This document shows positions 23,382-53,851 of a stretch of DNA of 64,000 bases, piece after piece (positions within the stretch are counted from its first letter, which is position 1; each line of letters opens with the position of its first letter). Position numbers and translations under genes: made by a program. The DNA lies in the NCBI GenBank assembly GCA_964016885.1, contig OZ024746.1, positions 54,994,001 through 55,058,000 on the forward strand, in the 5' to 3' direction. Below the pieces are notes generated by a model that had not been told where the DNA came from, did not search any database, and was given only the letters and a program-made list of their open reading frames with translations. This DNA is from Eledone cirrhosa. Its lineage: Eukaryota.

Positions 23382-23382
23382 G

Positions 23383-23490
<108 letters not shown>

Positions 23491-23498
23491 TATGTATG

Positions 23499-23529
<31 letters not shown>

Positions 23530-23567
23530 GTATATATATATATGTATATATAAATATATATGTATAT

Positions 23568-23642
<75 letters not shown>

Positions 23643-23646
<4 letters not shown>

Positions 23647-24190: not shown

Positions 24191-24230
24191 TATACATATG
24201 TATACATATATATATATATATATGTGTATA

Positions 24231-24267
<37 letters not shown>

Positions 24268-24270
24268 ATA

Positions 24271-24354
<84 letters not shown>

Positions 24355-24394
24355 CATATTTATATGTATATATATATATGTATATATACCTATA

Positions 24395-24451
<57 letters not shown>

Positions 24452-24456
24452 ATATA

Positions 24457-24499
<43 letters not shown>

Positions 24500-24514
24500 G
24501 TATATGTATATATA

Positions 24515-26125
24515 TTTTTATTAAAATATGTAAGCTGGCCTTAGCAACTCCACTGAAGATGCTCTTCAGAAGCTCCTTGGCTAGCGGTGTACTACCCAGG
24601 GAGCTGAAAGAAAGCACAATATGCCTATCCATAAAGGAGGTAGTAGAGCTGAGGCCAAGAACTATAAGCCAGTCTCCCTGACGTCGCATATCAGTAAGGT
24701 CATGGAGCGAGTCATCAGAAAGAAACTAATCACTTTCCTCGAAGAAAATGACCGCCTGACTAGCACGCAACATGGCTTCCGCCCAGGAAGAAGCTGCCTT
24801 ACACAGCTGCTACATCACTACGACTGGGTACTGAGACAACTACTAGACAGCTCACATGTGGACGTGATATATCTTGACTTTGCGAAGGCCTTTGACAAGG
24901 TCGACCACGGAATGATATGTCACAAACTACACGGACTCGGCATAACTGGAAAAGTAGGTGAGTGGCTGCATGGCTTCCTAAGGGGCAGAAGCCAGGCAGT
25001 CGCAGCAAATGGGGCCCTCTCGACGGAAACACCATTAACAAGTGGGGTGCCCCAGGGGACAGTCCTGGGACCACTACTGTTTTTGGTGGCTCTCTCGGAC
25101 ATGCCCGCTGTGGTGCATGCAACAACATCCCTCACTAGCTATGCTGATGACACTAAGGTGGCACAGGCAATCAAAAACCCGGCTGACGCTGCCCTTTTAC
25201 AGCAGGATCTGGATGCCATATGCAAATGGGCGGAAGAAAACAACATGCAGTTTAATGCTGGCAAATTCCAAGCCCTACAATACAAACCTGCAAACACAAA
25301 TATAGTGGAACACAGCTACACAGGACCAGGAGGGACCGATATCCCCGTGTCAAAATCGATACGAGACCTGGGCATAGACATGAGCGATGATGCATCTTTT
25401 TCTGCGCACATCATGAAAGTGGCGACAATGTGCAGACGACACGCTGGCTGGATCTTGAGGACTTTCCGGACAAGAGACCGAGACACCATGTTGACACTGT
25501 GGAGGACCTTTGTCCTAAGCCGCCTGGACAACTGCTCCAAGTTGTGGTCACCCCATAGTGTCAAACTAACCACGGAGCTTGAGGCAATCCAGCGAATCTA
25601 CACCAAGATGATTGCCAAGATGAGGGAGACAAGCTACTGGGAGAGGCTAAAGGAACTGAACCTCTATTCCTTGGAGCGAAGACGGGAGAGATACGCAGTG
25701 ATCTACATGTGGAAAATCCTGGAGGGACTAGCACCAACCTTTGGCATTGGGAGCTGGACCAACCGTCGAACAGGACGTCACTGTGTGGTGCCAAAGGTCC
25801 CGTCTTCCACATCTAGAATAAGGAGCAGGTATTGCAATAGCCTGGGATTCAAGGGCCCTCAACTCTTCAACGGGCTGCCGAGGGATCTGAGAGACTTGCA
25901 TGACGTAGAGGTGGATGTCTTTAAGAAACATCTCGACACCTTGTTATCCAGGATCCCGGATGAGCCCACAGCAAGACACGGGGAAAACCTAAGGGCAGCA
26001 GCAAAAAACTCCCTCTTACACCAGTGGCCAACCTATACAGGGTGGAGATAAAATGTGTAGCAACAAGGGCGTTGCCCCAGCATGGCCTCAGCCGGATGGC
26101 TGGAACAGGTAAAAGAGTAAAAGAG
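24515..26125 (+). mobile_element. 5'-truncated CR1-group LINE
   Basis: RT ORF followed by a short 3' UTR and GTAAAAGAGTAAAAGAGTA tail. No APE domain. A duplicated-block copy is at ~35980-37591. Confidence 0.92.
24621..26051 (+). CDS. Non-LTR reverse transcriptase ORF (CR1 group), 5'-truncated
   Basis: [56 protein letters not shown]. Confidence 0.9.
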
Positions 26126-26137
26126 TATATGTATATA

Positions 26138-26218
<81 letters not shown>

Positions 26219-26263
26219 GCATATATATATATATGTATATATATATGCATATATATATATATG

Positions 26264-26344
<81 letters not shown>

Positions 26345-26641
26345 GTATATATATATATGTATATATATATATATGTATATATATATATGTATATATATAT
26401 ATACATATATAGAGATGACCCCTTAGCCTTTGTCAAGGCATAATTCTAGAAGATGGAAAACTCTGATATAACACCTGCAACTCTGATGGTATCCAATGAT
26501 GTTGACTTGTTCTTCTTTTTCGTAAATATCATCTTGGTTAAGAGAGTGGGACTGGCTTTGTGCAGCGCCTTTGCTCACTATAAAAGCTTCACGGCACAGG
26601 CATTCCTTTATATCTGGAGATCTCTCTGCACTTGTCGTCAC

Positions 26642-26841: not shown

Positions 26842-27567
26842 GCCCTTGTTGCTACACATTTTATCTCCAGCCTGTATAGGTTGGCCACTGGTGTAGGAGG
26901 GAGTTTGTTGCTGCTGCCCTTAGGTTTCCCTCGTGTCTTGCTGTGGGCTCATCCGGGATCCTGGATGACAAGGTGTCGAGATATTTCTTAAAGACATCCA
27001 CTTCCACGTCATGCAAGTCTCGCAGATGCCTCGGCAGCCTGTTGAAGAGTTGAGGGCCCTTGAATCCCAGGCTATTGCAATACCTGCTCCTTATTCTAGA
27101 TGTGGAAGACGGGACCTTTGGCACCACACAGTGACATCCTGTTCGACGGTTGGTCCAGCTCCCAATGCCAAAGTTTGGTGCTAGTTCCTCCAGGATTTTC
27201 CACATGTAGATCACTGCGTATCTCTCCCGTCTTCGCTCCAAGGAGTAGAGGTTCAGTTCCTTCAGCCTCTCCCAGTAGCATCTTGGCAATCCTCTTGGTG
27301 TAGCTTCGCTGGATTGCCTCAAGTATATATATATATATATATATAAGTGAAGGCGTGTGGCTGAGTGGTTAGAGAATTGAATTCGCAATCGTAAGGTTGT
27401 GAGTTCGATTCCTGGACCAGGCGATGCGTTATGTCCTTGAGCAAGACACTTTATTTCACGTTGCTCCTTCTACCTGGAGTTGCGACCGATAGATAGTATT
27501 AGCAATTGGAAAGACCAACGGAAACATTGTTCCCTCGGTCCGATTTGACAAAAGTAGATCGTTTAAG

Positions 27568-27599
<32 letters not shown>

Positions 27600-27878
27600 T
27601 ATAAATATGTATATATATATGTATAGTATATATGCATATATATGTATATATATATGCAAATATATATATATGTATATATATATGCATATAAAATATATAT
27701 ATGTATATATATATGCATATATAGATATATGTATATATATATGCATATATATATATATATATGTATATATATATTCATATATATATATATATGTATATAT
27801 ATATGCATATATATATATATATATATATATAAATATGTATATATATATGCATATATATATATATGTATATATATATGC

Positions 27879-27914
<36 letters not shown>

Positions 27915-28016
27915 GCATATATATATATATGTATATATATATGCATATATATATATATGTATATATATATGTATATATATATAAGTATATATATTATGTA
28001 TATTTATATATATATT

Positions 28017-28061
<45 letters not shown>

Positions 28062-28128
28062 GTATATATATATATATGTATATATATATATGTATATATA
28101 TGTATATATATATGTATCTATATATATG

Positions 28129-28159
<31 letters not shown>

Positions 28160-28262
28160 GTATATATATATGTATATATATGTATATATATATGTATATA
28201 TATATGTATATATATATGTATATATATATATGTAAATATATATGTATATATATGTATATATG

Positions 28263-28321
<59 letters not shown>

Positions 28322-28330
28322 AATATATAT

Positions 28331-28395
<65 letters not shown>

Positions 28396-28467
28396 GTATA
28401 TATATATATGTATATATATATGTATATATACATATATATATATACATATATATAAATATACATATAT

Positions 28468-28532
<65 letters not shown>

Positions 28533-28547
28533 CATATATATATATAC

Positions 28548-28579
<32 letters not shown>

Positions 28580-28679
28580 TTATACATATATATATATGTA
28601 TATATATATATATATGTATATATATGTATATATATATATACGTATATATACATATATATAAAGATATACATATATATAA

Positions 28680-28746
<67 letters not shown>

Positions 28747-28973
28747 ATATTCGAAAATATTCTGTATGTTTATAATAAACATGTTGAAGACCCAATCGCT
28801 ATAGAATAGAATACGTCACGTATTACAATGTGAGATTCTCGATAAAAGCAAGGGAAGTAACCTACGCGTTTCATTGATTGGGTCTTCAAAATGTTTATTA
28901 TAAACATACAGAATATTTTCGAATATTCTATGTTTGTCTTCACATATATATCGCTATTTCAGAGCATTAAATC

Positions 28974-29112
<139 letters not shown>

Positions 29113-29127
29113 ATATATCTATATATC

Positions 29128-29207
<80 letters not shown>

Positions 29208-30889
29208 AAGAAAAAGAGATGAAATCGAAAATGCAACTGATGTCTTATTTAAAAAAAATATATATATATTTATTTGGTTCCTTTACCGGTTTCGCAGTTC
29301 TTCTGCTTTTCAAAAGGTGAGTTGAGATGGAGGGTCTGTGGTTTTTCTCACATCTGGTTGGTCTCTGAATGTTACTTGTTTTATATGGAAAAAGTGGCTC
29401 GAAAGCAAGGTTTTTCGAGAAGTAATTTGATTGGTTTGTCAATAATTATAATAAATTTCGCGCCAGTTCGCGTTACAATAGTTCTTCAAATAAGAGAGGG
29501 GGGGGTTTGTTACAGGTTGTTTTTTCATATATGAGTATTTGAATTTCTTTTTACTTGAAAAAAGGAGGCTCACGAAGGCTTTTACCTGTGCGCTAACAAT
29601 ACAACAGAACAAATGCGAATAAATAAGGAAAATATGTTTATTCAAAAATATAGACCAACATTAAATAAGGTTTAATATACATTATGTCACCACCACAATA
29701 TGACATACACACACACACACATAACACCTTCTACTTTAGAAAATAAAAACCCGAACTAAATAAACCTTAACATACGTTTGCACTGGCAATACAACAGCAA
29801 ACACGAAAAAGTCAGGAAAATATGTTCATTCAAAAATATTCCTACTAAAGGAATCACTTTCCTACACACACACATACACACACACACAATATATATATAT
29901 ATATATTCTCTTCATCTTAACATGCTAACCATACTCCCACACACATAACACCCATACACACACATAACAACCCCCACACCTACAACTCCCTCCCCATTTC
30001 TACTAATAGAACCACTTTCCTACACACATATATATATACACACACACAAAATATATATTCTCTCCATCTTAACATACTCGCACACACACACATAACACCC
30101 ATATACACACACACACAACTCCCTCCCCCATCTCTACTAATAGAATCATCTTCCAATACACACATACACACACACACATACACACACACAAGCACACAAA
30201 TAAACACATATCTTCAGTCTCAATAGAAAATCTGAACTCTGACACCTGAACTCTGACAGCTGGCCATATTCACTGAACCAGAACATTTCTCCCAATCCCT
30301 TTTCCCTTGACCATTGTCATAACATTCACTATAAAGACTACAGAATAGTTTTCCAAATAAGGGCGCAAAAATGTAATGAAAACTTGTTCACGTGACAGCC
30401 AAATTTCATTTATAACCAACCAAAAAAAAGCCTTTGTGAGCCTCCATTTTTCAAGTAAAAAGAAATTCAAACACTCATATATGAAAAAACAACCTGTGAC
30501 AAACGCCCCTCTCTTATTTGAAGAACTATTGTAACGCGAAATGGCGCGAAATTTATTATAATTATTGACAAACCAATCAAATTACTTCTCGAAACGAAAA
30601 ACCTGGCTTTCGAGCCACTTTTTCCATATAAAACAAGTAACATTCAGAGACCAACCAGATGTGAGAAAAACCACAGACCCTCCATCTCAACTCACCTTTT
30701 GAAAAGCAGAAGAACTGCGAAACCGGTAAAGGAACCAAATAAATATATATATTTTAAAAAAAAATAAGACTTCAGTTGCATTTTCGATTTCATCTCTTTT
30801 TCTTTATACTTCCACTCGTGTAGGACACCTCGGTTACTTTTCATTTTGTAAAAAAAACCTCACTTTCTAATATATATATATATATATAC

Positions 30890-31004
<115 letters not shown>

Positions 31005-31010
31005 CACATA

Positions 31011-31076
<66 letters not shown>

Positions 31077-31087
31077 CATATATATAC

Positions 31088-31154
<67 letters not shown>

Positions 31155-31167
31155 CATATATATATAT

Positions 31168-31515
<348 letters not shown>

Positions 31516-32166
31516 GTGTCAGGTCACCAGTTGGTGCTACTGGTAACATGTATCCCAGTACAACCTGTCCCATGGTCGAGTCGTTGGCGACTAAACTGGC
31601 AACCCCACCAAGGTTTCTTGGTGAGGAGGGTGACTTTGGACATCCTGCAGGACTAAAAACAAAACCTGTCAAAGGGCAAAGGTGTTCTTAAAAGTCAATG
31701 GCCATCCAAAATCACCGGGAGAGATGACCCCTTAGCCTTTGTCAAGGCAGAATTCTAGGAGAAGGAAAACTCTGATATAACACCTGCAACCCTGATGGTA
31801 TCCAATGATGTTGACTTGTTCTTCTTTTTGGTAAATATCATCTTGGTTAAGAGAGTGGGACTGGCTTTGTGCAGTGGCTTTGCTCACTATAAACGCTTTA
31901 CAGCTCAGGCATTGCTTTATATCTGGAGATCTCTCTGCACTTGTTGTCACATGGTACCATGGGCCCAGCACTATGTGTCAATAATTGTCACAAGTGTAGT
32001 GTTTGTAACAGAGTTTTCAAGTCGCTGGTTGGACTAAAAAGTCACACTCGTTCTGCGCATCGGTAAGGGTTCTCCTACATGGATATGAAGTAGTGGCCGT
32101 ACTCGAAAACGAGTTGGCAGCCACCATATATATATATATATGTATATATGTATATATGTATATATG

Positions 32167-32199
<33 letters not shown>

Positions 32200-32207
32200 G
32201 TATATAC

Positions 32208-32285
<78 letters not shown>

Positions 32286-32305
32286 ATATATATATATGTA
32301 TATAC

Positions 32306-32532
<227 letters not shown>

Positions 32533-34762
32533 AACGTTCTATTTAAAGTTGTTGGGATACAACAAGTAAATATTTTTTTAACTGATATAAAGCACTCGAC
32601 AAATTTTTGGAGTAGATATACGATATTAATAAATGGAAACTATATTTATAAAACCATATTTATTTCATTATAACTAAAAATGTAGTGTACAATTGTAATG
32701 TTAAAACTAATTTAAATTCATTTAACTCTGTTGGTTCCACCTCTACAGAATCTAAATTTCGCTTCAATAATCATAAGAACTCTTTCACAGATCCAAACAA
32801 AAAATCTTCAACTTTGCTATCGAGCCTACTATGGGACCTAAAACGAGATAATATTAAATATTCGATGAATTGGAATATTATTTCAAAATCTACTCCTTTT
32901 AATTCCTCTTCAGAAAATTGTGATCTTTGTATTGAAGAAATATTCTTTATATTAAAGTCCAAAAATTCCCTTAATCTGAGGAACAATTTATTCAGTTGCT
33001 GCAGACATAGATTGAACTCAACGTTAAATATAAATATAAATTTAAAATGTAGTATAATTAATTAAGTAATTTTAGTATATACTATATATACTAAACTACT
33101 CGAAAATGTCTATACTTCCAATGTATTAAATAATATATACGTAAGGTAAATTTCTATATTAAATATAAGGTTATCTGTAGAATCATTGGGTTTTTTAAAT
33201 TTTTTAAATCTTTTAAATTATTTTTAATTGTTTTGATTATGATAGCTTCTCATAATTTTCACAAGTCTACCCTCTCAATATCTTGATTGAGATATACGTA
33301 GGATAAATTTCTATACTAAATATATAAAACATATTATTCTAACTTAAGAAACTCTATAGTGTTTTAATGATATTTAATGCTTTGATATTTCTAGATTTCT
33401 TTTGTCTATATAGTTGCATTTCCAAAATATATTCCTTTCGTATTTTAAATTTATATTGTTATGGTTATATTTACAAATTATAATCCTTTGTTAATTTATT
33501 GATATTGGATTATCTCTATACAAATGCATAGGTGTGTATTAACATGCATAGAAAGTATTATAGATTTTTTTGTGTTTGTATGTGTCTGTATATATACATG
33601 AGTGATGCATGAGGACGCACGCAAATATTTATTTATACATATGTATGTGTATATATGTATGTGTATATATCTATGTGGTTGAGAGGTATGTTGCATATGT
33701 GCATAATATTAAACACATGAATGGTAATCGTATATATGAGGACATGATTGTTAATCGTATATATTTGTATATATATACTGTGAAATTTTTATAACACAAT
33801 GAGTGTATAGCAGTGATTAAGAGAAATCATTTACGTTTTGTATGGCTATATTGTTGGCTTGAGTAAACATAATTTTTATTTTCAGGACGTGCGTATCTAT
33901 ATGTATTTGTATATACACATATATTTGTATGTCTTTGCATAAAATACTAATCTCTATAGCAAGGATACATTTTGAACTCAGATTTTGGTATATTGATCTC
34001 AAGTTTCTAAACTAAACATATGGTCATTATTGAACACAAATCCCGCCGAGGTTAACTTTGCCTTTCATCCTTACGGGGTCGATAAAATAAAGTACCAGTA
34101 ATGTACTGGGTAATTTTCTGGCCTTGTGCCAATAGTAGAAACAATTATTGAACAATGTTTAATTTCTCATATTATATATGTATGTCCCATTCATGAATAT
34201 TGATACTTATATTTATATTTTTATTATTCATTTCATATAAATTGTTAACTCAACTTAATATGACATGACGTAAAGTTGTCACTGTCCCCCTCTCTCTATA
34301 TAGTATTTCTCTCTCTTGAGTTCCTCTTTCTGTATGATGACTTGAAATCTCTCTGTTGCTTTCCTTTGTTTTTCTTATTACTTCCTTTTCTTTCGTTTTT
34401 AATTCCTCCTATCTTTATCTATCTCTTTCTTCTCTCCATACATTTCTCTCTCTCTCCGATATTTCTCCAGGTTTTCTTTCTCTTTTCTTTCTCTCTCTCT
34501 GTCTTTGTTCTTTTCTCTTTCTTTCTCTCCGTCTTTTTCTAATTGTGCTTAACACTATGAATTATTAGATAAACAAATCACTATCCAGACAGCCTCCAAA
34601 CGTAATGGTTGTATTTTAAAGGGTACGTCAAACGTATTTGTAAAACTGTTATATATTGTATTTTACCTGATGAAGGCATACCATAATTTAATGTGGTATC
34701 CCTGAAATATGTATAATGAAATAAATATGGTTTTATAAATATAGTTTCCATTTATTAATATC

Positions 34763-34862
<100 letters not shown>

Positions 34863-34863
34863 G

Positions 34864-34955
<92 letters not shown>

Positions 34956-34963
34956 TATGTATG

Positions 34964-34994
<31 letters not shown>

Positions 34995-35038
34995 GTATAT
35001 ATATATATGTATATATAAATATATATGTATATATACAT

Positions 35039-35107
<69 letters not shown>

Positions 35108-35727
35108 AAATAAAGTTAAATAAAAGTCAAATGATTAAAATTTAGCTTCGTTTATTACTGCTATATATATTTCAGTGACAGCCATCATTGGCTGTTACCT
35201 CTTCAGGCAGTTTGAATTAGTATGGTATAGACAAGTACATATGTTGTTTAGGTGTATAATATTGTCAATACTCTGATATGTCCAGTTCCTTGTTGGTTTG
35301 TTAATTCACTGAGGAACTGGAGTCATATCTTATATGACTCCAGTTCCTCAGTGAAATAACAACCCAACAACGAACTGGGCATATCAGAGTATTGACAATA
35401 TTATACACCTAAACAACATATGTACTTGTCTATACCATACTAATTCAAACTGCCTGAAGAGGTCACAGCCAAAGATGGCTGTCACTGAAATATATATAGC
35501 AGTAATAAATGAAGCTAAGTTTTAATCATTTGACTTTTATTTAACTTTATTTTACACTACTCCGGAGTAACCAAACCAACCTGCGCACTTCGTCGAGTGC
35601 TCCAGCCTGCATACTGAGGTATTGGTATACAACCAACACAAACTCAAAATATATACATATGTATACATATATATATATATATATGTGTATATATATGTAT
35701 ATATATATATATATATATATGTGTATA

Positions 35728-35817
<90 letters not shown>

Positions 35818-35857
35818 CATATTTATATGTATATATATATATGTATATATACCTATA

Positions 35858-35920
<63 letters not shown>

Positions 35921-35931
35921 ATATATATATG

Positions 35932-35964
<33 letters not shown>

Positions 35965-36085
35965 GTATATGTATATATATTTTTATTAAAATATGTAAGC
36001 TGGCCTTAGCAACTCCACTGAAGATGCTCTTCAGAAGCTCCTTGGCTAGCGGTGTACTACCCAGGGAGCTGAAAGAAAGCACAAT

Positions 36086-37516
36086 ATGCCTATCCATAAA
36101 GGAGGTAGTAGAGCTGAGGCCAAGAACTATAAGCCAGTCTCCCTGACGTCGCATATCAGTAAGGTCATGGAGCGAGTCATCAGAAAGAAACTAATCACTT
36201 TCCTCGAAGAAAATGACCGCCTGACTAGCACGCAACATGGCTTCCGCCCAGGAAGAAGCTGCCTTACACAGCTGCTACATCACTACGACTGGGTACTGAG
36301 ACAACTACTAGACAGCTCACATGTGGACGTGATATATCTTGACTTTGCGAAGGCCTTTGACAAGGTCGACCACGGAATGATATGTCACAAACTACACGGA
36401 CTCGGCATAACTGGAAAAGTAGGTGAGTGGCTGCATGGCTTCCTAAGGGGCAGAAGCCAGGCAGTCGCAGCAAATGGGGCCCTCTCGACGGAAACACCAT
36501 TAACAAGTGGGGTGCCCCAGGGGACAGTCCTGGGACCACTACTGTTTTTGGTGGCTCTCTCGGACATGCCCGCTGTGGTGCATGCAACAACATCCCTCAC
36601 TAGCTATGCTGATGACACTAAGGTGGCACAGGCAATCAAAAACCCGGCTGACGCTGCCCTTTTACAGCAGGATCTGGATGCCATATGCAAATGGGCGGAA
36701 GAAAACAACATGCAGTTTAATGCTGGCAAATTCCAAGCCCTACAATACAAACCTGCAAACACAAATATAGTGGAACACAGCTACACAGGACCAGGAGGGA
36801 CCGATATCCCCGTGTCAAAATCGATACGAGACCTGGGCATAGACATGAGCGATGATGCATCTTTTTCTGCGCACATCATGAAAGTGGCGACAATGTGCAG
36901 ACGACACGCTGGCTGGATCTTGAGGACTTTCCGGACAAGAGACCGAGACACCATGTTGACACTGTGGAGGACCTTTGTCCTAAGCCGCCTGGACAACTGC
37001 TCCAAGTTGTGGTCACCCCATAGTGTCAAACTAACCACGGAGCTTGAGGCAATCCAGCGAATCTACACCAAGATGATTGCCAAGATGAGGGAGACAAGCT
37101 ACTGGGAGAGGCTAAAGGAACTGAACCTCTATTCCTTGGAGCGAAGACGGGAGAGATACGCAGTGATCTACATGTGGAAAATCCTGGAGGGACTAGCACC
37201 AACCTTTGGCATTGGGAGCTGGACCAACCGTCGAACAGGACGTCACTGTGTGGTGCCAAAGGTCCCGTCTTCCACATCTAGAATAAGGAGCAGGTATTGC
37301 AATAGCCTGGGATTCAAGGGCCCTCAACTCTTCAACGGGCTGCCGAGGGATCTGAGAGACTTGCATGACGTAGAGGTGGATGTCTTTAAGAAACATCTCG
37401 ACACCTTGTTATCCAGGATCCCGGATGAGCCCACAGCAAGACACGGGGAAAACCTAAGGGCAGCAGCAAAAAACTCCCTCTTACACCAGTGGCCAACCTA
37501 TACAGGGTGGAGATAA
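36086..37516 (+). CDS. Same CR1-group RT ORF in the duplicated block
   Basis: Translation is identical to 24621-26051. Confidence 0.85.
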
Positions 37517-37602
37517 AATGTGTAGCAACAAGGGCGTTGCCCCAGCATGGCCTCAGCCGGATGGCTGGAACAGGTAAAAGAGTAAAAGAGTATATGTATA
37601 TA

Positions 37603-37675
<73 letters not shown>

Positions 37676-37720
37676 GCATATATATATATATGTATATATA
37701 TATGCATATATATATATATG

Positions 37721-37797
<77 letters not shown>

Positions 37798-37863
37798 GTA
37801 TATATATATATGTATATATATATATATGTATATATATATATGTATATATATATATACATATAT

Positions 37864-38269
37864 AGAGATGACCCCTTAGCCTTTGTCAAGGCATAATTCT
37901 AGAAGATGGAAAACTCTGATATAACACCTGCAACTCTGATGGTATCCAATGATGTTGACTTGTTCTTCTTTTTCGTAAATATCATCTTGGTTAAGAGAGT
38001 GGGACTGGCTTTGTGCAGCGCCTTTGCTCACTATAAAAGCTTCACGGCACAGGCATTCCTTTATATCTGGAGATCTCTCTGCACTTGTCGTCACATGGTA
38101 CCATGGGCCCAGCACTATGTGTCAATAATTGTCACAGGTGTGGTGTTTGTGCCAGAGTTTTCTGGTCGCTGGCTGGACTAAAAAGTCACACTCGTTCTGC
38201 GCATCAGTAGGAGTTCTCCTACATGGATATAAAGTAGTGGCCGTACTCGAAAACGAGTTGGCAGCCACC

Positions 38270-38270
<1 letters not shown>
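37864..38270 (+). mobile_element. Second, diverged and 5'-truncated copy of the short RTE derivative
   Basis: Homologous to 20260-20665 with scattered substitutions. A partial copy at 26410-26641 runs into the gap. Confidence 0.75.
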
Positions 38271-38323
<53 letters not shown>

Positions 38324-38378
38324 GTATATATATATATGTGTATATATATATGTATATATATATATATATGTATATATG

Positions 38379-38409
<31 letters not shown>

Positions 38410-38410
38410 G

Positions 38411-38441
<31 letters not shown>

Positions 38442-38450
38442 GTATATATG

Positions 38451-38481
<31 letters not shown>

Positions 38482-38482
38482 G

Positions 38483-38513
<31 letters not shown>

Positions 38514-38794
38514 GTATATATATATTATTAAGTGTAATAAATTCTTTTACAATGGAATTAGCTCGAAGAAAGAAATATTTCTGAGCCGTGTATAAACTAT
38601 ATGTATATATGTATATGTATATATACGTATATATATATATATGTATATATGTATATGTATATATATGTATATATGTATATATATATATATGTATATATGT
38701 ATATGTATGTATATATATGTACGTATATATATATGTATATATATATATATGTATATATGTATATATGTATATATATATATATGTATATATAAAG

Positions 38795-39350
38795 AATTAA
38801 TATATCTACCGACATATGTATACAGATGCATACCTACGCTAGCAGATATATATGTTTTGTCTTAGTAACGTTGTAGTTATATGCAGGGGAATGCAGAACA
38901 TTTATATGAAAGACGTAAATAAGAAAGTTATGAAAATTGACTTACTTACTAAAATTTCACTCCAACTAATTACTTTCTGTAAGGGGATAAATACAGTTAT
39001 GTAATACCTGTAGAGAAGCCTTACGTCATCAGGGAATCTATTCTCAGCTAAGCCACCAGGCAATGCGGGGACACTGGAAGCTTATATAACAATAATTCAG
39101 TGGATGGAAAAAAGCGAAAAAATCGAGCGGGGCTAGATTCTAAGCCACTGAAAAATTCGCTGCCTTCTTGGTCAAGTGGCAAATTCAAAAGAATTAATCA
39201 CGTGACACTGAGGTTAACCAGCTCTGAGTGGGGTGCTATTAAGACAGAGCCTAGCCACTACTATCACTCACAGTAGTAATTTGGCAAATTTTGCTCAACA
39301 AATAATTTGGAGCAGAATAAAAAAATTAATATATCTACCGACATATGTAT
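38795..39350 (-). mobile_element. Retrozyme-like non-coding HHR element, copy 2, terminally redundant
   Basis: 27-nt direct repeat AATTAATATATCTACCGACATATGTAT at 38795-38821 and 39324-39350 (period 529). HHR at 38959-39037. Confidence 0.82.
38959..39037 (-). ncRNA. Hammerhead ribozyme motif
   Basis: Minus strand: attcc-CTGATGA-c-gtaagg...ccttac-a-GAAA-gtaattag-TT-ggagt. Confidence 0.72.
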
Positions 39351-39365
39351 TCACCAAACTTCTAA

Positions 39366-41678
39366 TTGAAAAAAACTGACTCTTTCGTAAGAAGACTTAG
39401 ATGGATAGCCTATTTCTATGACCAGCGCCTAAAAGGGAACTTCTATACCAAAGAACATAACCTCCTCGATCATCTATTTAATTCTGGAAGAAATCCTCCT
39501 TCCAACAAAAATCTTGTGCAATTCGAGGAAGAATTAACTAAAATTATAAAAAATCTTAAATTCAAGAGATACCCTTACAAAGGACAAGAGCACCTTGTAA
39601 ATCTCAAGAACACAATTTCAGACCTAAATTCCTCAAAAAATGTTTTAGTTCACTCTGACAAAACCAATAACTTATATGGTATTTCCAAGGATAATTATAA
39701 CAATCTTATCCTAAAGGAACTTAGGAAAAAATATCGTAAAACCAACCATGAAAATTTAGAATACATAAACTTTGAAGCCTCTGAGATTATGTCAAAACTT
39801 GGCATTGAAAAAAAAACAGAACGATTCCTCCCAAGAACTCCGAGGATAAATCTCAAGGATCACAAAAACAATTTTCGCACTGAACTACCTGTTAGATTAA
39901 TCGCCCCCTCTAAATCAGATCTGGGGGTTGTTAGTAAAGCCATCTAGGATAGAATTATCCCACAGGTTCGTTCTAATTGCTCTTCTTTGAACCTAAATTT
40001 ATGGTTTGGTACTTCTGAAGTGATTAGCTGGTTCAACAAATTGAATAATAAAAACAAACTAAAATTTGTTCAATTTGATATTGCCAGCTACTATTCTTCT
40101 ATTTCGCCTTCACTTCTCAATAATGCTCTATCTTTCGCACTTAAATATTCTGACAGCACCACGGATGAACTTCACATCATTCTCACCGCACGTAAAACCA
40201 TCCTAGAGTTCAACAACGAATATTGGACCAGAGCCGATACCACTAACAACTTCGACATCACAATGGGAGCATCCGATTCATCCCAATTGACAGATTTAAT
40301 TGGTATCTTTATTTTGAACTCTTTGAGTCGGAAAATTCCTCAACTTCGCGGTGGAATTTATCGTGACGATGGACTCTTTACTATCATAAATTGCAACATA
40401 GTTAACCTTAATATTATTAAGAACAATATACGTAATCTCTTTAACCAACATAACCTAAAAATTGAATTTGATAACAGCATCAAACTAGCTAATTTCTTGG
40501 ATGTATCTCTTAATCTTGACACTGGCCTATATTACCCTTACCATAAAAACAATGAGAACCTAAATTATGTTAACTTTAAATCTAACCATCCTACTAATAT
40601 CAAGAATGCTATAGTTAGTAATATTGGAAAAAGAATATCTAACCTATCTTCTAATAAACACATCTTTGATGCTAACGCCAATTACTATAATAACGCGCTT
40701 TCTAAAGCCGGCTATCCTGATAAAATCAAATATAGTAAAGAAACAAATTCTAGAAGAAATTACAGTAGAATAATTAATCATGGTCATTCCAATAACTTTA
40801 ATAAAAGACCTAGATACAAAAACATAATCTGGTATAATGCTCCTTTCTCCATCTCTATTAATAATAATATTCCTGAATTATTCTTTAGTGCCTTAAATAA
40901 ATGCTTCCCTCCCTCACATATCTATAGTAAAATATTTAACAAACACACTATAAAATTTTCCTATTCTACATCCTCCAACATTTCCAACATTATCTCTAAA
41001 CACAACAATAAAATACTAAATACCAAATCTCTTCCTTCCAACACTGAATATCATAATAATAGTACTCCCGACGTCATTGTAAACCCTAGGCTAATTTCTA
41101 CAAACCCAAATACAACGTCAAACACAACTTCGCTAAATGTTCTTAATCCCATTCAAGAAACTATTATTCCTATCGCAAATAACTTCTTCAATCCAATTCC
41201 TTCTATAGATAACAATAGGTCACTCATTAATAATCTCTCTAATCGCAATTGCAATTGCCCTATTAAAAATAAATGTCCTCTCAACAACCATTGTCTTGAT
41301 AAAAACCTAATTTACGAATGTAAAGTTATAACTGACACCAATTCCTTCACCTATTTTGGCTCCACTTCCACCTCTTTTAAAGCTCGTCTTTATAACCATC
41401 ATTCGTCTTTTAAATACAAACTTAAAAGAACCAACACGGCTCTCTCAGAACTCATATGGTCCTTGAAAGACAAAAATATTAAATATAGCATCTTTTGGAA
41501 GAAGGTTTCTTCTGCGTTTTCATACTTGAACAGTTCTCTATCCAAAATTTGCATTCTCTGTCTAAATGAAAAGTTTACCATTATTTCTAATTTAGATTCT
41601 ATAATAAATAGACGCACTGACTTGTTTTCTATCTGCTTGCATAAGTTCCATAAAACATTTCACAAAGTATACAGCTAA
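39366..41678 (+). pseudogene. PLE RT/GIY-YIG endonuclease ORF with one in-frame TAG (39945-39947)
   Basis: FVRRLRW, FDIASYY, FDITMGASDS, GIYRDDGL, FLDVSL, SNHP, CNCx5CPLx3CL, LIYEC...YFGST...FKARLYNH, CILCLNEK, CLH. ORFs 39366-39947 and 39987-41678 are in the same frame. Confidence 0.9.
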
Positions 41679-42542
41679 TATTCAATTCTTTATCAATTTA
41701 TAATCTTTTTCTCAAAGGCACATATATATATACACTTCTTTTAAAAATATACCCATCTTTCTACCTTATTTCAAAGGTTATTATACATTCTATAATACTT
41801 GTTACTCATTCTACATCACTCCTATTTATCACTTCCCTTTCTTCTCTTCTTCTTTTAATGTCTAACCCCTAATCTGTACCTTTTCTCACTCTTGCCTAAC
41901 ATAGAATCAATTATTACATAATACAATACATTCTTACTCTATATCACCTTGTAAAAATCCTTCGTAAACATATACATTTTTTGACGTTAGATTATTCATC
42001 CTAAATTCATTATTCTTTTTCTCCCTTTCATCTAACTCATTCATGCTCATCTCACAATATTTCCTTACTTAAATAACCTGTTGTTCCTTTTAATAATACA
42101 TATCTACATTTTCTTAACATCGCACATATTATTGAACCCTTAAATATTATTCTCAATACATATTAACATTTTCTTTTTCATCGCACATATTATCAAACCC
42201 CTCAATATACAAACCTTAACTTTACATTATTTTTTTCTCTTCGTTAATTTTCAAATTCATTTAATTTATACATTATCTTCCAACGATTTTCAACCTCTCT
42301 ATGTAAAACAATATATCTTTCTCAGTTATAAAAGCGATCTCTCTCTCTCTATCACCCATCTCTCCTCCTATCTCATCCTTCCTCATTATACTCCTCCTTC
42401 TCCACTTTTTACTCTCATCTCCCCCACCCCCCCTCGAAATAAAATATTTTTCCCAATATCACACATCAATCTAAAACTACTTCTGATATGTTGACTTAAA
42501 ACTGAACTATCCACAAGTGTTTTTTAACCTTCATATCATGTC

Positions 42543-42624
42543 TTCCTGTTTTATCTGATGAAAACACAAATATTATTGCATGATGATATTTATTTTTGAA
42601 ATGCGCATAATAAAATACATGGAA
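42543..42624 (+). ncRNA. Hammerhead ribozyme motif of Naiad A
   Basis: tcctgttttat-CTGATGA-aaacacaaatat...atatttattttt-GAAA-tgcgca-TA-ataaaatacatgga. Confidence 0.8.
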
Positions 42625-42765
42625 CTCTTTTAACCATCTTTTGTTCTTATATATATATTATATAAATATATATATATACATATATATATACAGATATATA
42701 TACAGATATATATATATACACATATATACACATATATATATATAAATATATATATACATATATAT

Positions 42766-42805
<40 letters not shown>

Positions 42806-42831
42806 ATATATATATATATATATATACATAC

Positions 42832-42908
<77 letters not shown>

Positions 42909-42919
42909 TATATATATAC

Positions 42920-42966
<47 letters not shown>

Positions 42967-42972
42967 GTATAT

Positions 42973-43018
<46 letters not shown>

Positions 43019-43102
43019 ATATATATATATACAATTGTATATATTTATATATACATATGTGTATATATATATATACATATATATATATATACATATATAT
43101 AT

Positions 43103-43153
<51 letters not shown>

Positions 43154-43154
43154 C

Positions 43155-43187
<33 letters not shown>

Positions 43188-43224
43188 CATATGTATATAT
43201 ATATATATACATATATATACACAC

Positions 43225-43262
<38 letters not shown>

Positions 43263-43265
43263 ATA

Positions 43266-43297
<32 letters not shown>

Positions 43298-43303
43298 CAC
43301 ACA

Positions 43304-43338
<35 letters not shown>

Positions 43339-43377
43339 GTGTGTATATATATATGTATATATATATATATACATATG

Positions 43378-43408
<31 letters not shown>

Positions 43409-43438
43409 GTGTGTATATATATGTATATATATATATAC

Positions 43439-43546
<108 letters not shown>

Positions 43547-43610
43547 ATATATATATATATACAAATATATAGATACATATATATATATATATATACATAT
43601 ATATATACAC

Positions 43611-43769
<159 letters not shown>

Positions 43770-43979
43770 TATATACATATATACATTTAAAGTGTACGAT
43801 AAACACGAAATGTGTTTACTTTGCAACAGACAAAGTTAGCCATTTAGCCAAACTAATAAAAGTGAATACAATTTGTCTGTCTCGATATAAGTCAATAAAG
43901 ACAATATTATATTGGCAACAGCCATGATTCCTGGACATATTTAAATTTCAAAATTCAAACCTGTTCTGTAGACGAATTT

Positions 43980-45097
43980 GGACACAATCATAGGCAGGGA
44001 CTACCATGCATCACTAATTGACAATGGAATCCAACGAGTCCTAAAACTCAGTACCCAGGACCTTAGATACCCTAAAGTAAATCAACCGAAACTAAAAGCT
44101 CTTCCATTCATCTCCACACACAACCCCCTCAACAATGAGGCCTTTGACACCATCCTTCAGAACATCCCTGTGTTGAAAAAGGACCATAGAATGAACCAAA
44201 TTCTACGAACACATGATATCATAAAGAGCAAAAGACAATCCAAGTCAATGAAAAACATCCTAACACATGCCAAAGTACTGCCAACCACAACAACGAAACC
44301 CACAGTAAAACACATGCGATAGACCCAACTGTGGCATTTGCATCAACCTAATAGAGGGTTCGGAATTCTATTTCAAAGATGGACAACGTTTTATAGTAAA
44401 ACACAATTTCACATGTGCATCGGAAAATCTAATATATGTATTAACTTGCTCAGGTTGTCGAGAACAATACATAGGCCAGACCAAAAACAGCCTCCGCCAA
44501 CGCATGACTGTCCATAGATCCCAAATTAAAATACGAGAATACAGGAAAATACCACTGAGTGAACACATTGATACCTGTGCCGCCCAAAATCATCCCAACT
44601 TCAGAATCTTTCCCATCTTCAAATTTAAAGATAATGCCACCCACACCCAGCGCATCAGCAAGGAATCTTACTTCATTAACAAATACGGACCCCGTCTAAA
44701 CACTTCTCCCTAAGACGAACCCACAACATACACACGTCAACATACATACCTACATCAGCACACATCTCTACCCACATATAAACACAATGACATACGTAAA
44801 TACACATGCTCTATGGTGCAACACAAAAAAATATGTGTATGTATATGTATATATATATGTATGTATATATATATATATATATATATATAGTGAATATATG
44901 TATGTGTATATATATATAGTGAATATCATTTCACACCTTTTATTGTTAAGATTTTTGATGTTCTAATAAGAGAACCGATTTTACTGAAAAAATCGAATAA
45001 TGTACACCATTTTACCAGGGGGAAAAATACTGGTCCACCCATACACACATATATACACACACACATACACACGCGTACATTAACATACAAAGAGACT

Positions 45098-45128
<31 letters not shown>

Positions 45129-45177
45129 TTCTCCGTATAAGACAAAAGCTGAAAAATATCTACCACGAATTACTCTG

Positions 45178-45240
<63 letters not shown>

Positions 45241-45829
45241 CTTATCTTAATAGCCATTTGACACACATCCCTGAAAACCATTATCACAACATCGAACACC
45301 TTACTACTACTACACACACACACAAACACACACATATTTGTTGTGAAAGAGTCATTTCACAATCTTGGCTCAAAACCAATTTTTTATTCACATGACCTCT
45401 ACCGACCCAATCAAAATTGTTTTGACCACAAGAATTTTTGCAAACACCAAGTAGCGCTGGAGCCACTTTTTTAACATAAAAACATTCTTGGCGCAAAATC
45501 AATTTTTTACATTCACATGACCTCTACCGACCAATCAAAATTGTTTTGACCACAAGAATTTTTGCAACACCAAAGTAACGCTGGAGCCACTTTTTAAACA
45601 TAAAAATAGGTAGAATTCCAAAAACTAATCAGATCAGAGCAAACAGCACGGACACTCTATCTCAAAAATTATTTTGAAAAGCATTTAGAAATGCGCAACC
45701 GGTAAAAAATTGAAAACTTAAAACCACAACTGAATACTAACCGATACAATCACTAATACTCTTTTATTCCTAATTAAACCATTTTCAACTGTGAACAAAT
45801 TGTCAGCAATTTCTATTCCATTTACCAAT
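43980..45829 (+). mobile_element. Neptune-type PLE, 5'-truncated copy 1
   Basis: Linker C-x4-C-x2-C plus FTCASENLIYVLTCSGCREQYIGQT...RMTVHRSQI (43978-44713, frameshift near 44315). CA-rich 3' region. Confidence 0.85.
45667..45711 (+). ncRNA. Variant HHR-like motif in the Neptune 3' end (mirror copy ~50708-50745 on minus)
   Basis: TTGAAAA-gcattt(ag)aaatgc-GCAA-ccgg-TA, positionally homologous to 19222-19259. Confidence 0.5.
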
Positions 45830-46103: not shown

Positions 46104-49100
46104 TGCAAAAGTTCTATTTAAAGTTGTTGGGATACAAGTAAATATTTTTATAACTGATATAAAGCACTCGACAAGTTTTGGGAGTAGATATACGATATTA
46201 ATGGAAACTATATTTATAAAAGCATATTTATTTCATTATACATATATCAGGGATACCACATTAAATTATGGTATCCCTTCATCAGACAAAATACAATATA
46301 TAACAGTTTTACAAATAGCTTTGACGTACCCTTTTAAAATTCAACCATTACATTTGGAGGCTGTCTGGATAGTGATTTCATCTATCACTCCTAATCTACC
46401 GAATAAGGCACTAAATTACGCATTTAAACATACTGTCCTAACTAGCAATGAAATGCACATTATATTATCGGCAAGGAAAACATTGATAGAATTTAATAAC
46501 CAACTCTGGACTAGGGCAGATAGAAATAATAATTTCGACATAACTATGGGATAATCAGACTCAGCTGAGGTAACGGATCTTGTGGGCCTATTTATAATTA
46601 ATTCGCTACATAGAAAAATACCAGGTGTAACCGGAGGATTATATCATGATGATATGCTTATACTTATAGAAAATAATAGCTGTGAACTAAATAGAAAAAG
46701 AAAACAATTATACAATTTTTTAATTACCTTAATCTAAAAATAGAAATAGAGAATAACCATAGAATAGTCAATTTTCTTGATGTAACACTAAATCTCAACA
46801 CATGTCTTCATTATCCATTTCACAAACTAAATGAGAACTTGAATTATGTCAACTTTAACTCTAATCACCCCATATCTGTTAAAAATACTATAGTGAACTC
46901 TGTTCAAGAACAAATTTCAAGAATTTCATCTAATAAAAATATATTTGATGAAAAAGCGGAGTATTACAACGAAGCGTTAGGTAGAGCTGGATATAGAAAT
47001 AAAATTAAATACATCGATAATAATAATAATAAGCAAACTAACCAAAATAATAACAATTTCAATTACGGTAACAACTTTAACAACTATAATAGAAAACATT
47101 ACAATAATTCTAAAAGCCGAAAAAGGAATAGAACTAGAAATATATTATGGTTTGCTTCCCCTTTCTCACTAAATATTAAAACCCCTATTGCTAAACTATT
47201 CTTTAAAGCTCTTGACAAACGCTTCCCTAGAACACATAAATATTACTCAATTTTTAGTAGACATACTATAAAATTAACTTACTCGTCCACCAAAAATTTA
47301 GCACAAAAACTATTAATAGAATTAATAATAGGAATTTAAAACCTAACCAAAATACCAATAATAATCCAAACAATATTCAATTAAATAACTGTAACTGTAG
47401 AAATAAATCTAACTGTCCGTTAAATAACAACTGCTTAGCTAAAAATGTAGTGTACAATTGTAATGTTAAAACTAATTTAAATTCATTTAACTATGTTGGT
47501 TCCACCTCTACAGAATTTAAATTTCGCTTCAATAATCATAAGAATTCTTTCACAGATCTAAACAAAAAATCTTCAACTTCGCTATCGAGCCTACTATGGG
47601 ACCTAAAACGAGATAATATTAAATATTCGATGAATTGGAATATATTCTCATAAGCTACTCCTTTTAATTCCTCTTCAGAAAATTGTGATCTTTATATTGA
47701 AGAAATATTCTTTATATTAAAGTCCAAAAATTCCCTTAATCTAAGGAACAATTTATTCAGTTGCTGCAGACATAGATTGAACTCAACGTTTAAATATAAA
47801 TATAAATTTAAAATGTAGTATAATTAATTAACTAATTTAGTTAATATATGAAACCTGTCGATAAATCATTAGATTCCTTCACCTTTTTCTTTTTAAACTT
47901 TCTTCCAAAATATAAACATGGATATAATAAACTACTCTAAAATGTCTATACTTCCAATGTATTAAATAAAATTATACGTAAGATAAACTTCTATACTAAA
48001 TATAAGGTTATCTGTAGAATCATTGGGTTTTTTAAATCTTTTAAATTATTTTTATTTATTTGTTTTGATTCTGATAGCTTCTCATATCTTTCATAAGTCT
48101 GCCCTTTCAATATCTTGATTGAGAGATACGTAGGATAAATTTCTATACTAAATATATAAAACATATTATTTCAACTTAAGATACTCTATAGTGTTTTAAA
48201 GATATTTAATGCTTTGATATTTCTAGATTTCGTTTGACTATACTAATATATTCCTTTGCTATTTTAAATTTATATTGTTATGCTTATATTTACAAGTTAT
48301 AATCCTTTAGTAATATATTGATATTTGTTTATCTCTATACAAATGCATATGTGTGTATTAACATGCATATAAAGTGTTATAGTATTTTTTGTGTTTGTAT
48401 ATGTGTCTGTATATATACATGAGCGATGCGGGAGGACGCACGCAAATATTTATTTATACATATGTATGTGTATATATGTATGTATATATATCTATGTGGG
48501 TGAGAGGTATGTTGCAGATATGCATAATATTAAATACATGAATGGTAATCGTATATACGAGGACATGAATATTAATCGTATATATTTATGTATATATACT
48601 GTGAACTTTTTATAACACAAGGAATTTATAGCAGTGATTAAGAGAAATCATTTACGATTTGTATGGCTATATTGTTGGCTTGAGTAAACATAATTTATAT
48701 TTTCAGGACGTGCCTATGTGTGTATATATATATATATACATATATATTTGTATGTCTTTACATAAGATACTTATCTCTATAGAAAGGGTACATTTTGAAC
48801 GATTTAACACAGATTTTGGTATATTGATCTCAAGTTTTTAAACTAAACATATAGTCATTATTGAACAATGTTTAATTTCTCATATTATATATGTATGTCC
48901 CATTCATGAATATTGATACTTATATTTATATTTTTATTATTCATTTCATATAAATTGTTAACTCAACTTAATATGACATGACGTAAAGTTGTCACTGTCC
49001 CCCTCTCTCTATATAGTATTTCTCTCTCTTGAGTTCCTCTTTCTGTATGATGACTTGATATATCTCTGTTGCTTTCCTTTGTTTTTCTTACTTCTTCCTT

Positions 49101-49557
49101 TTTACTTTCTTTTTTTATTTTCCTCCTATTTTTATTTTTCTGTTTCTTTTCTCCATACATGTCTCTCTCTCCGATATTTCTCCAGGTTTTCTTTCTCTCT
49201 CTACGTCATTTTTTCTTTCTCTCCGTCTTTTTCTAATTGTGCTTATGCTTAACACTATGACTTATAAAATAATATAAACAAATCACTATCCAGACAGCCT
49301 CCAAATGTAATGGTTGCATGTTAAAAGTGTACGTCAAAGCTATTTGTAAAACTGTTATATATTGTATTTTGTCTGATGAAGGCATACAATAATTTAATGT
49401 GGTATCCCTGAAATATGTATAATGAAATAAATATGGTTTTATAAATATAGTTTCCATTTATTAATATCGTATATCCACTCCAAAAACTTGTCGAGTACTT
49501 TATATCAGTTATAAAAATATTTACTTGTATCCCAACAACTTTAAATAGAACTTTTGC
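46104..49557 (+). mobile_element. Naiad-type PLE family B with inverted 5' pLTR
   Basis: 46104-46376 is the reverse complement of 49281-49557. Disrupted ORF 46377-47790 (FDITMG, GLYHDD, FLDVTL, CNCRNKSNCPLNNNCL, VVYNC...YVGST). HHRs at 46224-46299 (minus, GAAA>GATA) and 49359-49434 (plus). Confidence 0.88.
49359..49434 (+). ncRNA. Hammerhead ribozyme motif of Naiad B pLTR
   Basis: CTGATGA at 49373-49379, stem II, GAAA-tatgta-TA. Confidence 0.75.
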
Positions 49558-49599
49558 ATATATATATTTATATATATATATATATTTATATGTGTATAT

Positions 49600-50582: not shown

Positions 50583-52833
<2,251 letters not shown>

Positions 52834-52838
<5 letters not shown>

Positions 52839-53764
52839 GTATATTTACCAACATATGCTAGCAAATACATAAGTTATGTCATAGTACCTAGGTGGGTCAA
52901 TGCAGGAGGGTGCAGAACAATTATAGAAAGACGTAAAATAAGAAAATTTTAAAAATTAAAAATTAACTTACTTACTAAAATTTTCACTCCAACTAATTAG
53001 TTTCTGTAATGGGATAAAGATAGTTACGCAATGTAACCATCGAGAATTGATTACGTCATCAGGGAGTCTATTCTCAGCTAAGTCTCCAGGCAATGCGCGG
53101 ACACTAGGGACTCATATAAAAATAATAATAATTCGGTGGATGGAACAGCTAGCGGGGACTAAATTCCATAGCACTGAAAAAGTTCACTGTCTCTGGTCAA
53201 ATGGCAGATTCTAAAGAACCAATCACGTGACACTGAGGCTAGTCAGAAGGAGTGGGATGGTATAATGACAAAAGCCTACTACCACTACAATGAATTAGTA
53301 GTGGATTTGGCAAGTTTGCTCAACAAATAAATAATTTGGAGATAAATATTGAGAATTAGTATATTTACCAACATATGCGTACAGATGTACACTAATGCTA
53401 GCAAATACATAAGTTATGTCATAGTACCTAGGTCGTTCAATGCAGGAGGGTGCTCTGACTAGCCTCAGTGTCACGTGATTGATTCTTTAGAATCTGCCAT
53501 TTGACCAGAGACAGTGAACTTTTTCAGTGCTATGGAATTTAGTCCCCGCTAGCTGTTCCATCCACCGAATTATTATTTTTATATGAGTCCCTAGAGTCCG
53601 TGCATTGCCTGGAGACTTAGTTGAGAATAGACTCCCTGATGACGTAATGAATTCTCGATGGTTACATTGCGTAACTATCTTTATCCCATTACAGAAACTA
53701 ATTAGTTGGAGTGAAAATATTTGTAAGTTAATTTTTAATTTTTAAAATTTTCTTATTTTACGTC

Positions 53765-53768
<4 letters not shown>
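52834..53768 (-). mobile_element. Retrozyme-like HHR element, copy 3: ~1.2-mer (52834-53453, minus) plus inverted partial copy (53454-53768, plus)
   Basis: aattagtatatttaccaacatatgc at 52834 and 53354. 53454-53768 is the reverse complement of 52926-53247. HHRs at 52986-53067 (minus) and 53631-53712 (plus). Confidence 0.85.
53631..53712 (+). ncRNA. Hammerhead ribozyme motif (mirror copy 52986-53067 on minus)
   Basis: actcc-CTGATGA-c-gtaatg...cattac-a-GAAA-ctaattag-TT-ggagt. Confidence 0.8.

Positions 53769-53851
<83 letters not shown>

What the first reader, a model, noticed from the sequence alone, without database searches (positions are those of the whole stretch)
38795..42650. Retrozyme-like HHR RNA fused, inverted and without spacer, to a Naiad PLE ORF
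Seen: the non-coding HHR element (38795-39350, minus) abuts the truncated 5' end of the Naiad A ORF at 39350/39351 with no (TA)n between them, and the composite is flanked by TA arrays. Seen: in Naiad B (46104-46376) this inverted 5' slot is filled by the element's own pLTR. Here it is filled by a different family, whose HHR differs from the Naiad A HHR at 42543. Established: PLE insertions often carry an inverted 5' pLTR, and metazoan non-LTR retrozymes have been proposed to borrow PLE reverse transcriptase. Inference: this junction may record a single insertion event in which one RT copied both RNAs, giving a direct physical link between a helper PLE and a small ribozyme parasite.
Basis: partly seen in the sequence, partly recalled or inferred. 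Interest (0 to 1): 0.8.

Follow-up and report, generated by a model that had tools for sequence, protein, structure and literature searches.

The report
Two jumping RNAs in one insertion
A small non-coding ribozyme repeat is joined head-to-head to a Hydra-type Penelope-like retrotransposon, likely because two different RNAs were copied into one DNA break; such joins recur in this genome with many partner families, so this one does not single out a helper.

Summary
The junction is in the assembly as described. The left part (U, 38792-39350, minus) is 1.05 units of a 531-bp non-coding hammerhead repeat with thousands of copies. It starts at the family's fixed 'tail' end on (TA)n and meets the PLE 61 nt after its ATG through a 2-nt microhomology. 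0 of 29 other copies of that PLE carry U upstream. The PLE is not a Naiad: its endonuclease is C-terminal and it has the Hydra-clade motifs and a hammerhead. U has PLE-type anatomy (83 two-armed copies, all tail + tailless), which supports PLE mobilisation better than the junction does. A second U-A head-to-head join exists at another breakpoint, but U also joins at least seven other PLE-like families. Foreign partners mostly run outward to their own 3' end (10 vs 2, against 10 vs 36 for plain neighbours), which favours one insertion from two RNAs. Against: the end-type rule holds in only 5 of 10 cross-family joins, and no read spans the junction. Verdict: likely a two-RNA insertion (0.6), deletion between neighbours 0.3; a specific A-U helper link is not shown.

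The parts
38270..38791 (.). left (TA)n target array, interrupted near 38525-38595 by a fragment of another repeat
38792..39350 (-). U arm: 1.05 units of a 531-bp non-coding hammerhead repeat (retrozyme-like non-autonomous PLE); 3' end at 38792, 5'-truncated at 39350
   Evidence: longest ATG-started frame in a unit dimer 50 aa
38792..38899 (-). 108-nt 'tail' between the two fixed ends of U (38792 and 38900); folds into hairpins
38959..39037 (-). minimal type I hammerhead motif of U (palindromic stem III, predicted cut between 38964 and 38963); stem III mutated in this copy
   Evidence: no Rfam hit
39349..39350 (.). 2-nt microhomology (AT) at the head-to-head junction
39351..41678 (+). Hydra-clade PLE 'A' ORF remnant, truncated 61 nt after the ATG; RT then C-terminal GIY-YIG-type endonuclease; in-frame stop at 39945-39947
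41679..42647 (+). A 3' UTR and pLTR, ending at the tailless end; hammerhead motif at about 42549-42615
42648..43783 (.). right (TA)n target array
46104..49558 (+). comparison element B (related Hydra-type PLE) with its own inverted pLTR at 46104-46378; both ends carry the tail

Best explanation
The composite is likely one retrotransposition event in a (TA)n array, in which one strand was primed on the RNA of a non-autonomous hammerhead element (U) and the other on the RNA of a Hydra-clade PLE (A), and the two truncated cDNAs were likely joined at a 2-nt microhomology. Shown: both outer ends are the canonical family ends on (TA)n; the arms are head-to-head; the junction has AT overlap; U has PLE-type two-armed anatomy; U-A joins recur. 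Taken from the literature: a PLE protein nicks and extends both target strands and starts at two nearby RNA sites (PMC11167929). Inferred: simultaneous insertion; one complex holding two RNAs or two complexes at neighbouring nicks; a Hydra-type RT as U's usual helper. The partner choice looks non-specific.
For: U begins at its tail end and A stops at its tailless end, as in normal two-armed inserts: U 83 tail+tailless among 157 insertions, and A 15 of 15 two-ended copies among 29 with both flanks. Second U-A join at C1:54.04 Mb, with a different A breakpoint, a different U subfamily and short templated pieces of both arms at the junction. Of 36 foreign junctions, 14 (13 insertions) hit a PLE-like family; partners run outward in 11 insertions (10 without the window) and inward in 2, against 10 outward and 36 inward among 46 PLE neighbours of 250 TA-flanked ends (Fisher p = 1.5e-4). 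PLE-like families cover 7-9% of flanks (smaller library). Private substitutions: U 10 of 558, A 23 of 2172, p = 0.19. No residual TA at the junction.
Against: The tail + tailless rule holds in only 5 of 10 scoreable cross-family joins (for: window, L234, L002, L186, L085; against: L323, L337, L003, L334, L310), which is chance level. 22 of 36 foreign junctions hit no PLE-like family in my library, and some are LINEs or a GC-rich tandem repeat, so other joining routes such as deletion occur. The family library was built from the partners themselves, which inflates the share of hits. Samples came from best hits and exact patterns, mostly on C1 and C2. Equal age is a weak test. No read or contig listed spans the junction.
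Confidence: 0.6

Rival explanations
1. Two independent insertions in the same TA array were joined later, or at the second insertion, by a microhomology-mediated deletion that removed the spacer and any inner arms.
For: PLEs pile up in TA arrays: 46 of 250 nearest neighbours are PLE-like. End types are random in cross-family joins (5 of 10). Many U junctions have non-PLE partners. Single-armed U copies joined to TA are common (25 cases), 3 of them ending at unit positions 17-41, where this arm ends.
Against: Neighbours mostly face inward (36 of 46), while junction partners face outward (10 of 12 without the window) with no remnant of a proximal arm. No TA is left at the junction. L234 shows templated pieces of both arms at its junction. 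Mutation loads are similar.
Confidence: 0.3
2. A is the dedicated helper of U, and the junction records that partnership.
For: Two U-A joins (window, L234). U's hammerhead-to-end distances (about 70 and 190 nt) resemble those of Hydra-type A (60/150), B (60/150) and Y (70/180) more than Neptune-like N (about 160/240).
Against: No similarity between U and A beyond short AT-rich matches. U is also joined to B-like, C, J, N, W, X and Z families. Only the window has an A partner among 157 insertions of its own subfamily.
Confidence: 0.1
3. The junction is an assembly or library chimera.
For: No listed contig or read bridges it; it is unique among 40 scored candidates.
Against: Those runs differ from the assembly at common sites and hold at most 0.41 of the stretch's words, so they likely come from other individuals. 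A 2-nt overlap gives an assembler no repeat to misjoin (inference). Similar joins occur at about a dozen other loci.
Confidence: 0.04

Closest known systems
Hydra clade of Penelope-like elements (Craig et al. 2021, PMC8557442; read section 11 and passages)
   Same: A has a C-terminal endonuclease, DKT, a CxCX5C linker, CxxC and CxH motifs, no CCHH, a hammerhead motif and a (TA)n target.
   Different: Unit about 3.5 kb (the paper says generally under 3 kb); RWI in place of RWK; tail about 95 nt (30-40 bp described for other PLEs).
Metazoan non-LTR retrozymes (Cervera and de la Pena 2020, PMC7229834, passages; Li et al. 2026, 10.64898/2026.07.22.740005, parts 1-3 of 5)
   Same: Non-coding tandem unit with a type I hammerhead, low GC (37%), thousands of copies; proposed to be PLE-derived and PLE-mobilised.
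   Different: 531 bp; minimal PLE-type hammerhead; dispersed two-armed insertions with two fixed ends; circular RNA and cleavage untested; no parent pLTR found.
Tail-forming two-site initiation of Poseidon PAc (Frangieh et al. 2024, PMC11167929; parts 1-2 of 4)
   Same: Two fixed start sites, both target strands nicked and extended, AT-rich target, predicted dimer.
   Different: The parts read use one RNA species and describe no two-family products; the tails here are longer.
L1 twin priming and U6-L1 chimeras (recalled, no call)
   Same: Inverted 5' arm joined at microhomology; two RNAs in one insert.
   Different: Twin priming uses one RNA, and U6-L1 chimeras are same-sense template switches; here two families are head-to-head, each from its own 3' start site.

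Membership tests
Naiad PLE (element A) | N-terminal GIY-YIG endonuclease | tested here: not met
   The endonuclease-like domain follows the RT at the C-terminus; definition
Naiad PLE (element A) | no canonical hammerhead; DKA motif | tested here: not met
   Hammerhead motif at 42549-42615; motif reads DKT
Hydra PLE (element A) | single ORF, C-terminal endonuclease without CCHH, CxCX5C linker, CxxC and CxH motifs | tested here: met
   CNCPIKNKC, CILC and CLH in the translation, read by eye; Pfam gives no hit
Hydra PLE (element A) | DKT and RWK motifs | tested here: inconclusive
   DKT present; RWI, not RWK
Hydra PLE (element A) | hammerhead present, (TA)n target | tested here: met
Hydra PLE (element A) | placement in the Hydra clade of an RT tree | not tested
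   no reference set fetched
non-LTR retrozyme (U) | non-coding tandem unit with a type I hammerhead in each unit | tested here: met
   531-bp period, arms up to about 2.8 units; longest ATG frame 50 aa; stem II pairs T-A 216, C-G 42, A-T 12 and G-C 215, T-A 50 of 274 motifs
non-LTR retrozyme (U) | match to an Rfam hammerhead model | tested here: not met
   no hammerhead family at E up to 10; A's motif is also missed
non-LTR retrozyme (U) | self-cleavage and circular RNA | not testable with these tools
   no RNA run listed
non-autonomous PLE (U) | inverted two-armed insertions with a tail at one end, in microsatellites | tested here: met
   83 tail + tailless; 3 apparent tail + tail rows are filter artefacts
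non-autonomous PLE (U) | similarity to the pLTR or 3' end of an autonomous family | tested here: not met
   none against the 9 families then held; other families not searched

The most novel reading that the evidence does not exclude
The inverted arm of a PLE insertion can be primed from a second, unrelated RNA, so PLE integration complexes mix templates. Several per cent of insertions in this genome are two-family products, and the retrozyme-like U travels on Hydra-type machinery. This would be a direct genomic record of retrozyme-PLE co-mobilisation and a handle on how PLE inverted repeats form.
Probability: 0.45. Interest if true: 0.7.

Novelty: new variant of a known kind. Interest (0 to 1): 0.5.

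Why it matters
How PLEs form their inverted 5' arm, and whether one or two RNAs are used, is named as open in PMC8557442. That retrozymes use PLE enzymes rests on co-occurrence and pLTR similarity in the papers read. Two-family head-to-head inserts make both questions countable in a genome and testable in the existing in vitro system. I found no description of such inserts in five searches (result listings only). The library lacks most subscription papers, including older Penelope work, and I did not open supplements.

Tried and rejected
Rfam scans: only TA-repeat miRNA noise among the 150 rows shown of 452, and no hammerhead in the two targeted scans. Reads: no RNA holder listed. Contigs X1-X3 and X5, and contigs or reads X1, X2, X4 and X11, show only the two parental continuations at 39349/39350; one search hid 146 loose ends and 3447 pieces, so this is inconclusive. 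End complementarity looked like support at 5 of 5 and fell to 5 of 10 when the sample grew, so I do not count it. Junctions exactly at U's predicted cut site (L002, L192) are 2 of 254 against 11 of 2292 at control positions: not significant. The hit at C4:105.45 Mb that seemed to share the junction is A only. The second candidate U-A pair (L235) has TA between the two. The microhomology census of U-U junctions is rough and not relied on. No direct genome-wide search for U-A pairs was possible; only the first 54 Mb of C1 were cross-matched. Earlier-findings look-ups returned nothing. A search for the Adineta Penelope retrogene paper found nothing.

Full report
Observation. The window shows (TA)n, then 559 bp of segment U (38792-39350), then a 5'-truncated PLE ORF with its 3' UTR (39351-42647), then (TA)n. 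The first and last 28-30 bp of U are a direct repeat because U is 1.05 units of a 531-bp tandem unit. Full-length copies of the PLE read ...TGAAT|TCACC where the window reads ...TGTAT|TCACC, so the overlap is AT and the break lies 61 nt after the ATG. None of 29 other copies has U upstream. The junction query spans both sides only in the window among 40 scored candidates. The organism was not identified.

The PLE is not a Naiad. Naiads have an N-terminal endonuclease and lack canonical hammerheads (PMC8557442). Element A has RT first, then CNCPIKNKC, a YFGST core, CILC and CLH, with DKT upstream and a hammerhead motif in its pLTR. These fit the Hydra clade as defined in section 11 of that paper, except RWI for RWK. 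Element B is related (65% nucleotide identity in the RT). The window's A copy has an in-frame stop at 39945-39947.

What U is. A 23-nt motif of its hammerhead has 9077 exact matches in the genome; A's end motif has 8099. U has no ATG frame over 50 codons. Rfam misses the ribozyme, but the core is kept in most copies (CTGATGA 126 and GAAA 137 of 141), and two stem II pairs change on both sides between subfamilies. This copy has a stem III mismatch and is likely impaired. U copies sit in (TA)n as two head-to-head arms with two fixed ends 108 nt apart. Among 157 insertions of the window's subfamily, 83 have both ends canonical and all are tail + tailless; three further rows scored tail + tail are divergent copies cut by my identity filter. 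A obeys the same rule in 15 of 15. The window's B copy is an exception, with a tail at both ends. A tail at one end is a known PLE feature, explained by two nearby initiation sites and extension of both strands (PMC11167929). So U is mobilised like a PLE. Its end spacing resembles the Hydra-type families more than the Neptune-like one, but it shares no sequence with A or eight other families.

Is the join recurrent? Comparing the listed places of U and A motifs over the first 54 Mb of C1 gave two candidates. One (L234, C1:54.04 Mb) is a second U-A head-to-head composite: A tailless end, break near the ORF's end, short pieces of both elements at the junction, then U to its tail end. The other has TA between the two. 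U also joins B-like, C, J, N, W, X and Z families. Some of these are head-to-head; others are same-sense switches within one arm (L165, L176, L002, L073). Only the window has an A partner among the 157.

One event or a deletion? One search lists 45 non-canonical U ends not on TA. I dropped 9 (U itself or a divergent U: 3; simple repeats: 4; a W piece inside one U copy: 2). Of the other 36, 14 junctions in 13 insertions hit a PLE-like family; 11 insertions run outward to the partner's own 3' end (10 without the window) and 2 face inward. Among 250 TA-flanked U ends, the next non-repeat sequence is PLE-like in 46 cases, 10 outward and 36 inward (Fisher p = 1.5e-4). Against a 50:50 expectation, 10 of 12 gives about p = 0.02 (my arithmetic). 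The window's two arms carry 10 of 558 and 23 of 2172 private substitutions (p = 0.19). These points favour co-insertion.

Results against. The tail + tailless rule holds in only 5 of 10 scoreable cross-family joins, so it gives no support. It may mean that two RNAs choose their start sites independently, or that many joins are deletions. 22 of 36 foreign junctions have no PLE hit, and some are LINEs or a GC-rich tandem repeat. The library was built from the partners, and the loci are not a random sample. No listed contig or read bridges the junction, though the runs differ from the assembly.

Verdict. This is a real-looking composite of a retrozyme-like non-autonomous PLE and a Hydra PLE, most likely from one insertion with two primed RNAs (0.6). 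Deletion between neighbours stays open (0.3). The junction does not identify A as U's helper. The parts are known kinds, and a 2026 preprint already argues that animal retrozymes derive from PLEs. The recurring two-family insert was not found in my searches and is the point worth following.

Noticed in passing
window 16001-26641 and 27482-38093: Tandem duplication of about 10.7 kb at 98.5% identity just left of the composite; real or an assembly effect is untested.
   Followed up: partly
L166 (G000:C1:299.08 Mb): A two-armed U insertion in which all three hammerhead positions carry the same deletion of the ribozyme, suggesting the hammerhead is not needed for mobilisation.
   Followed up: partly
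L002 and L192: U stops exactly at the predicted hammerhead cut site and continues into foreign sequence; not above control (2 of 254 vs 11 of 2292).
   Followed up: yes
L323 and L003: The foreign partner is little more than the tail segment of family B or a J-like family, joined to a U arm.
   Followed up: partly
L073 (G000:C1:56.41 Mb): About one U unit is sandwiched between two inverted arms of another hammerhead family (Z) whose ends are atypical.
   Followed up: partly
window 14461-14930 and 52832-53776: Divergent U-family copies (72-77% identity) with compensatory changes in hammerhead stem II.
   Followed up: partly
loci L001-L343: At least ten hammerhead-bearing, TA-targeting families (A, B, H, J, K, N, U, W, X, Y, Z) with tails of roughly 65-150 nt, longer than the 30-40 bp described for PLEs.
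   Followed up: partly
L198 1347-3911: Long open Hydra-type ORF (854 aa, family C) joined to U, with no hammerhead found in its 3' region by my pattern.
   Followed up: partly
window 43785-45828 and 51775-52680: Two copies of a Neptune-like PLE with a GIY-YIG Pfam hit; no hammerhead seen in the 3' region.
   Followed up: no
window 46104-49558: Element B has the tail at both ends, unlike the other two-armed copies scored.
   Followed up: partly
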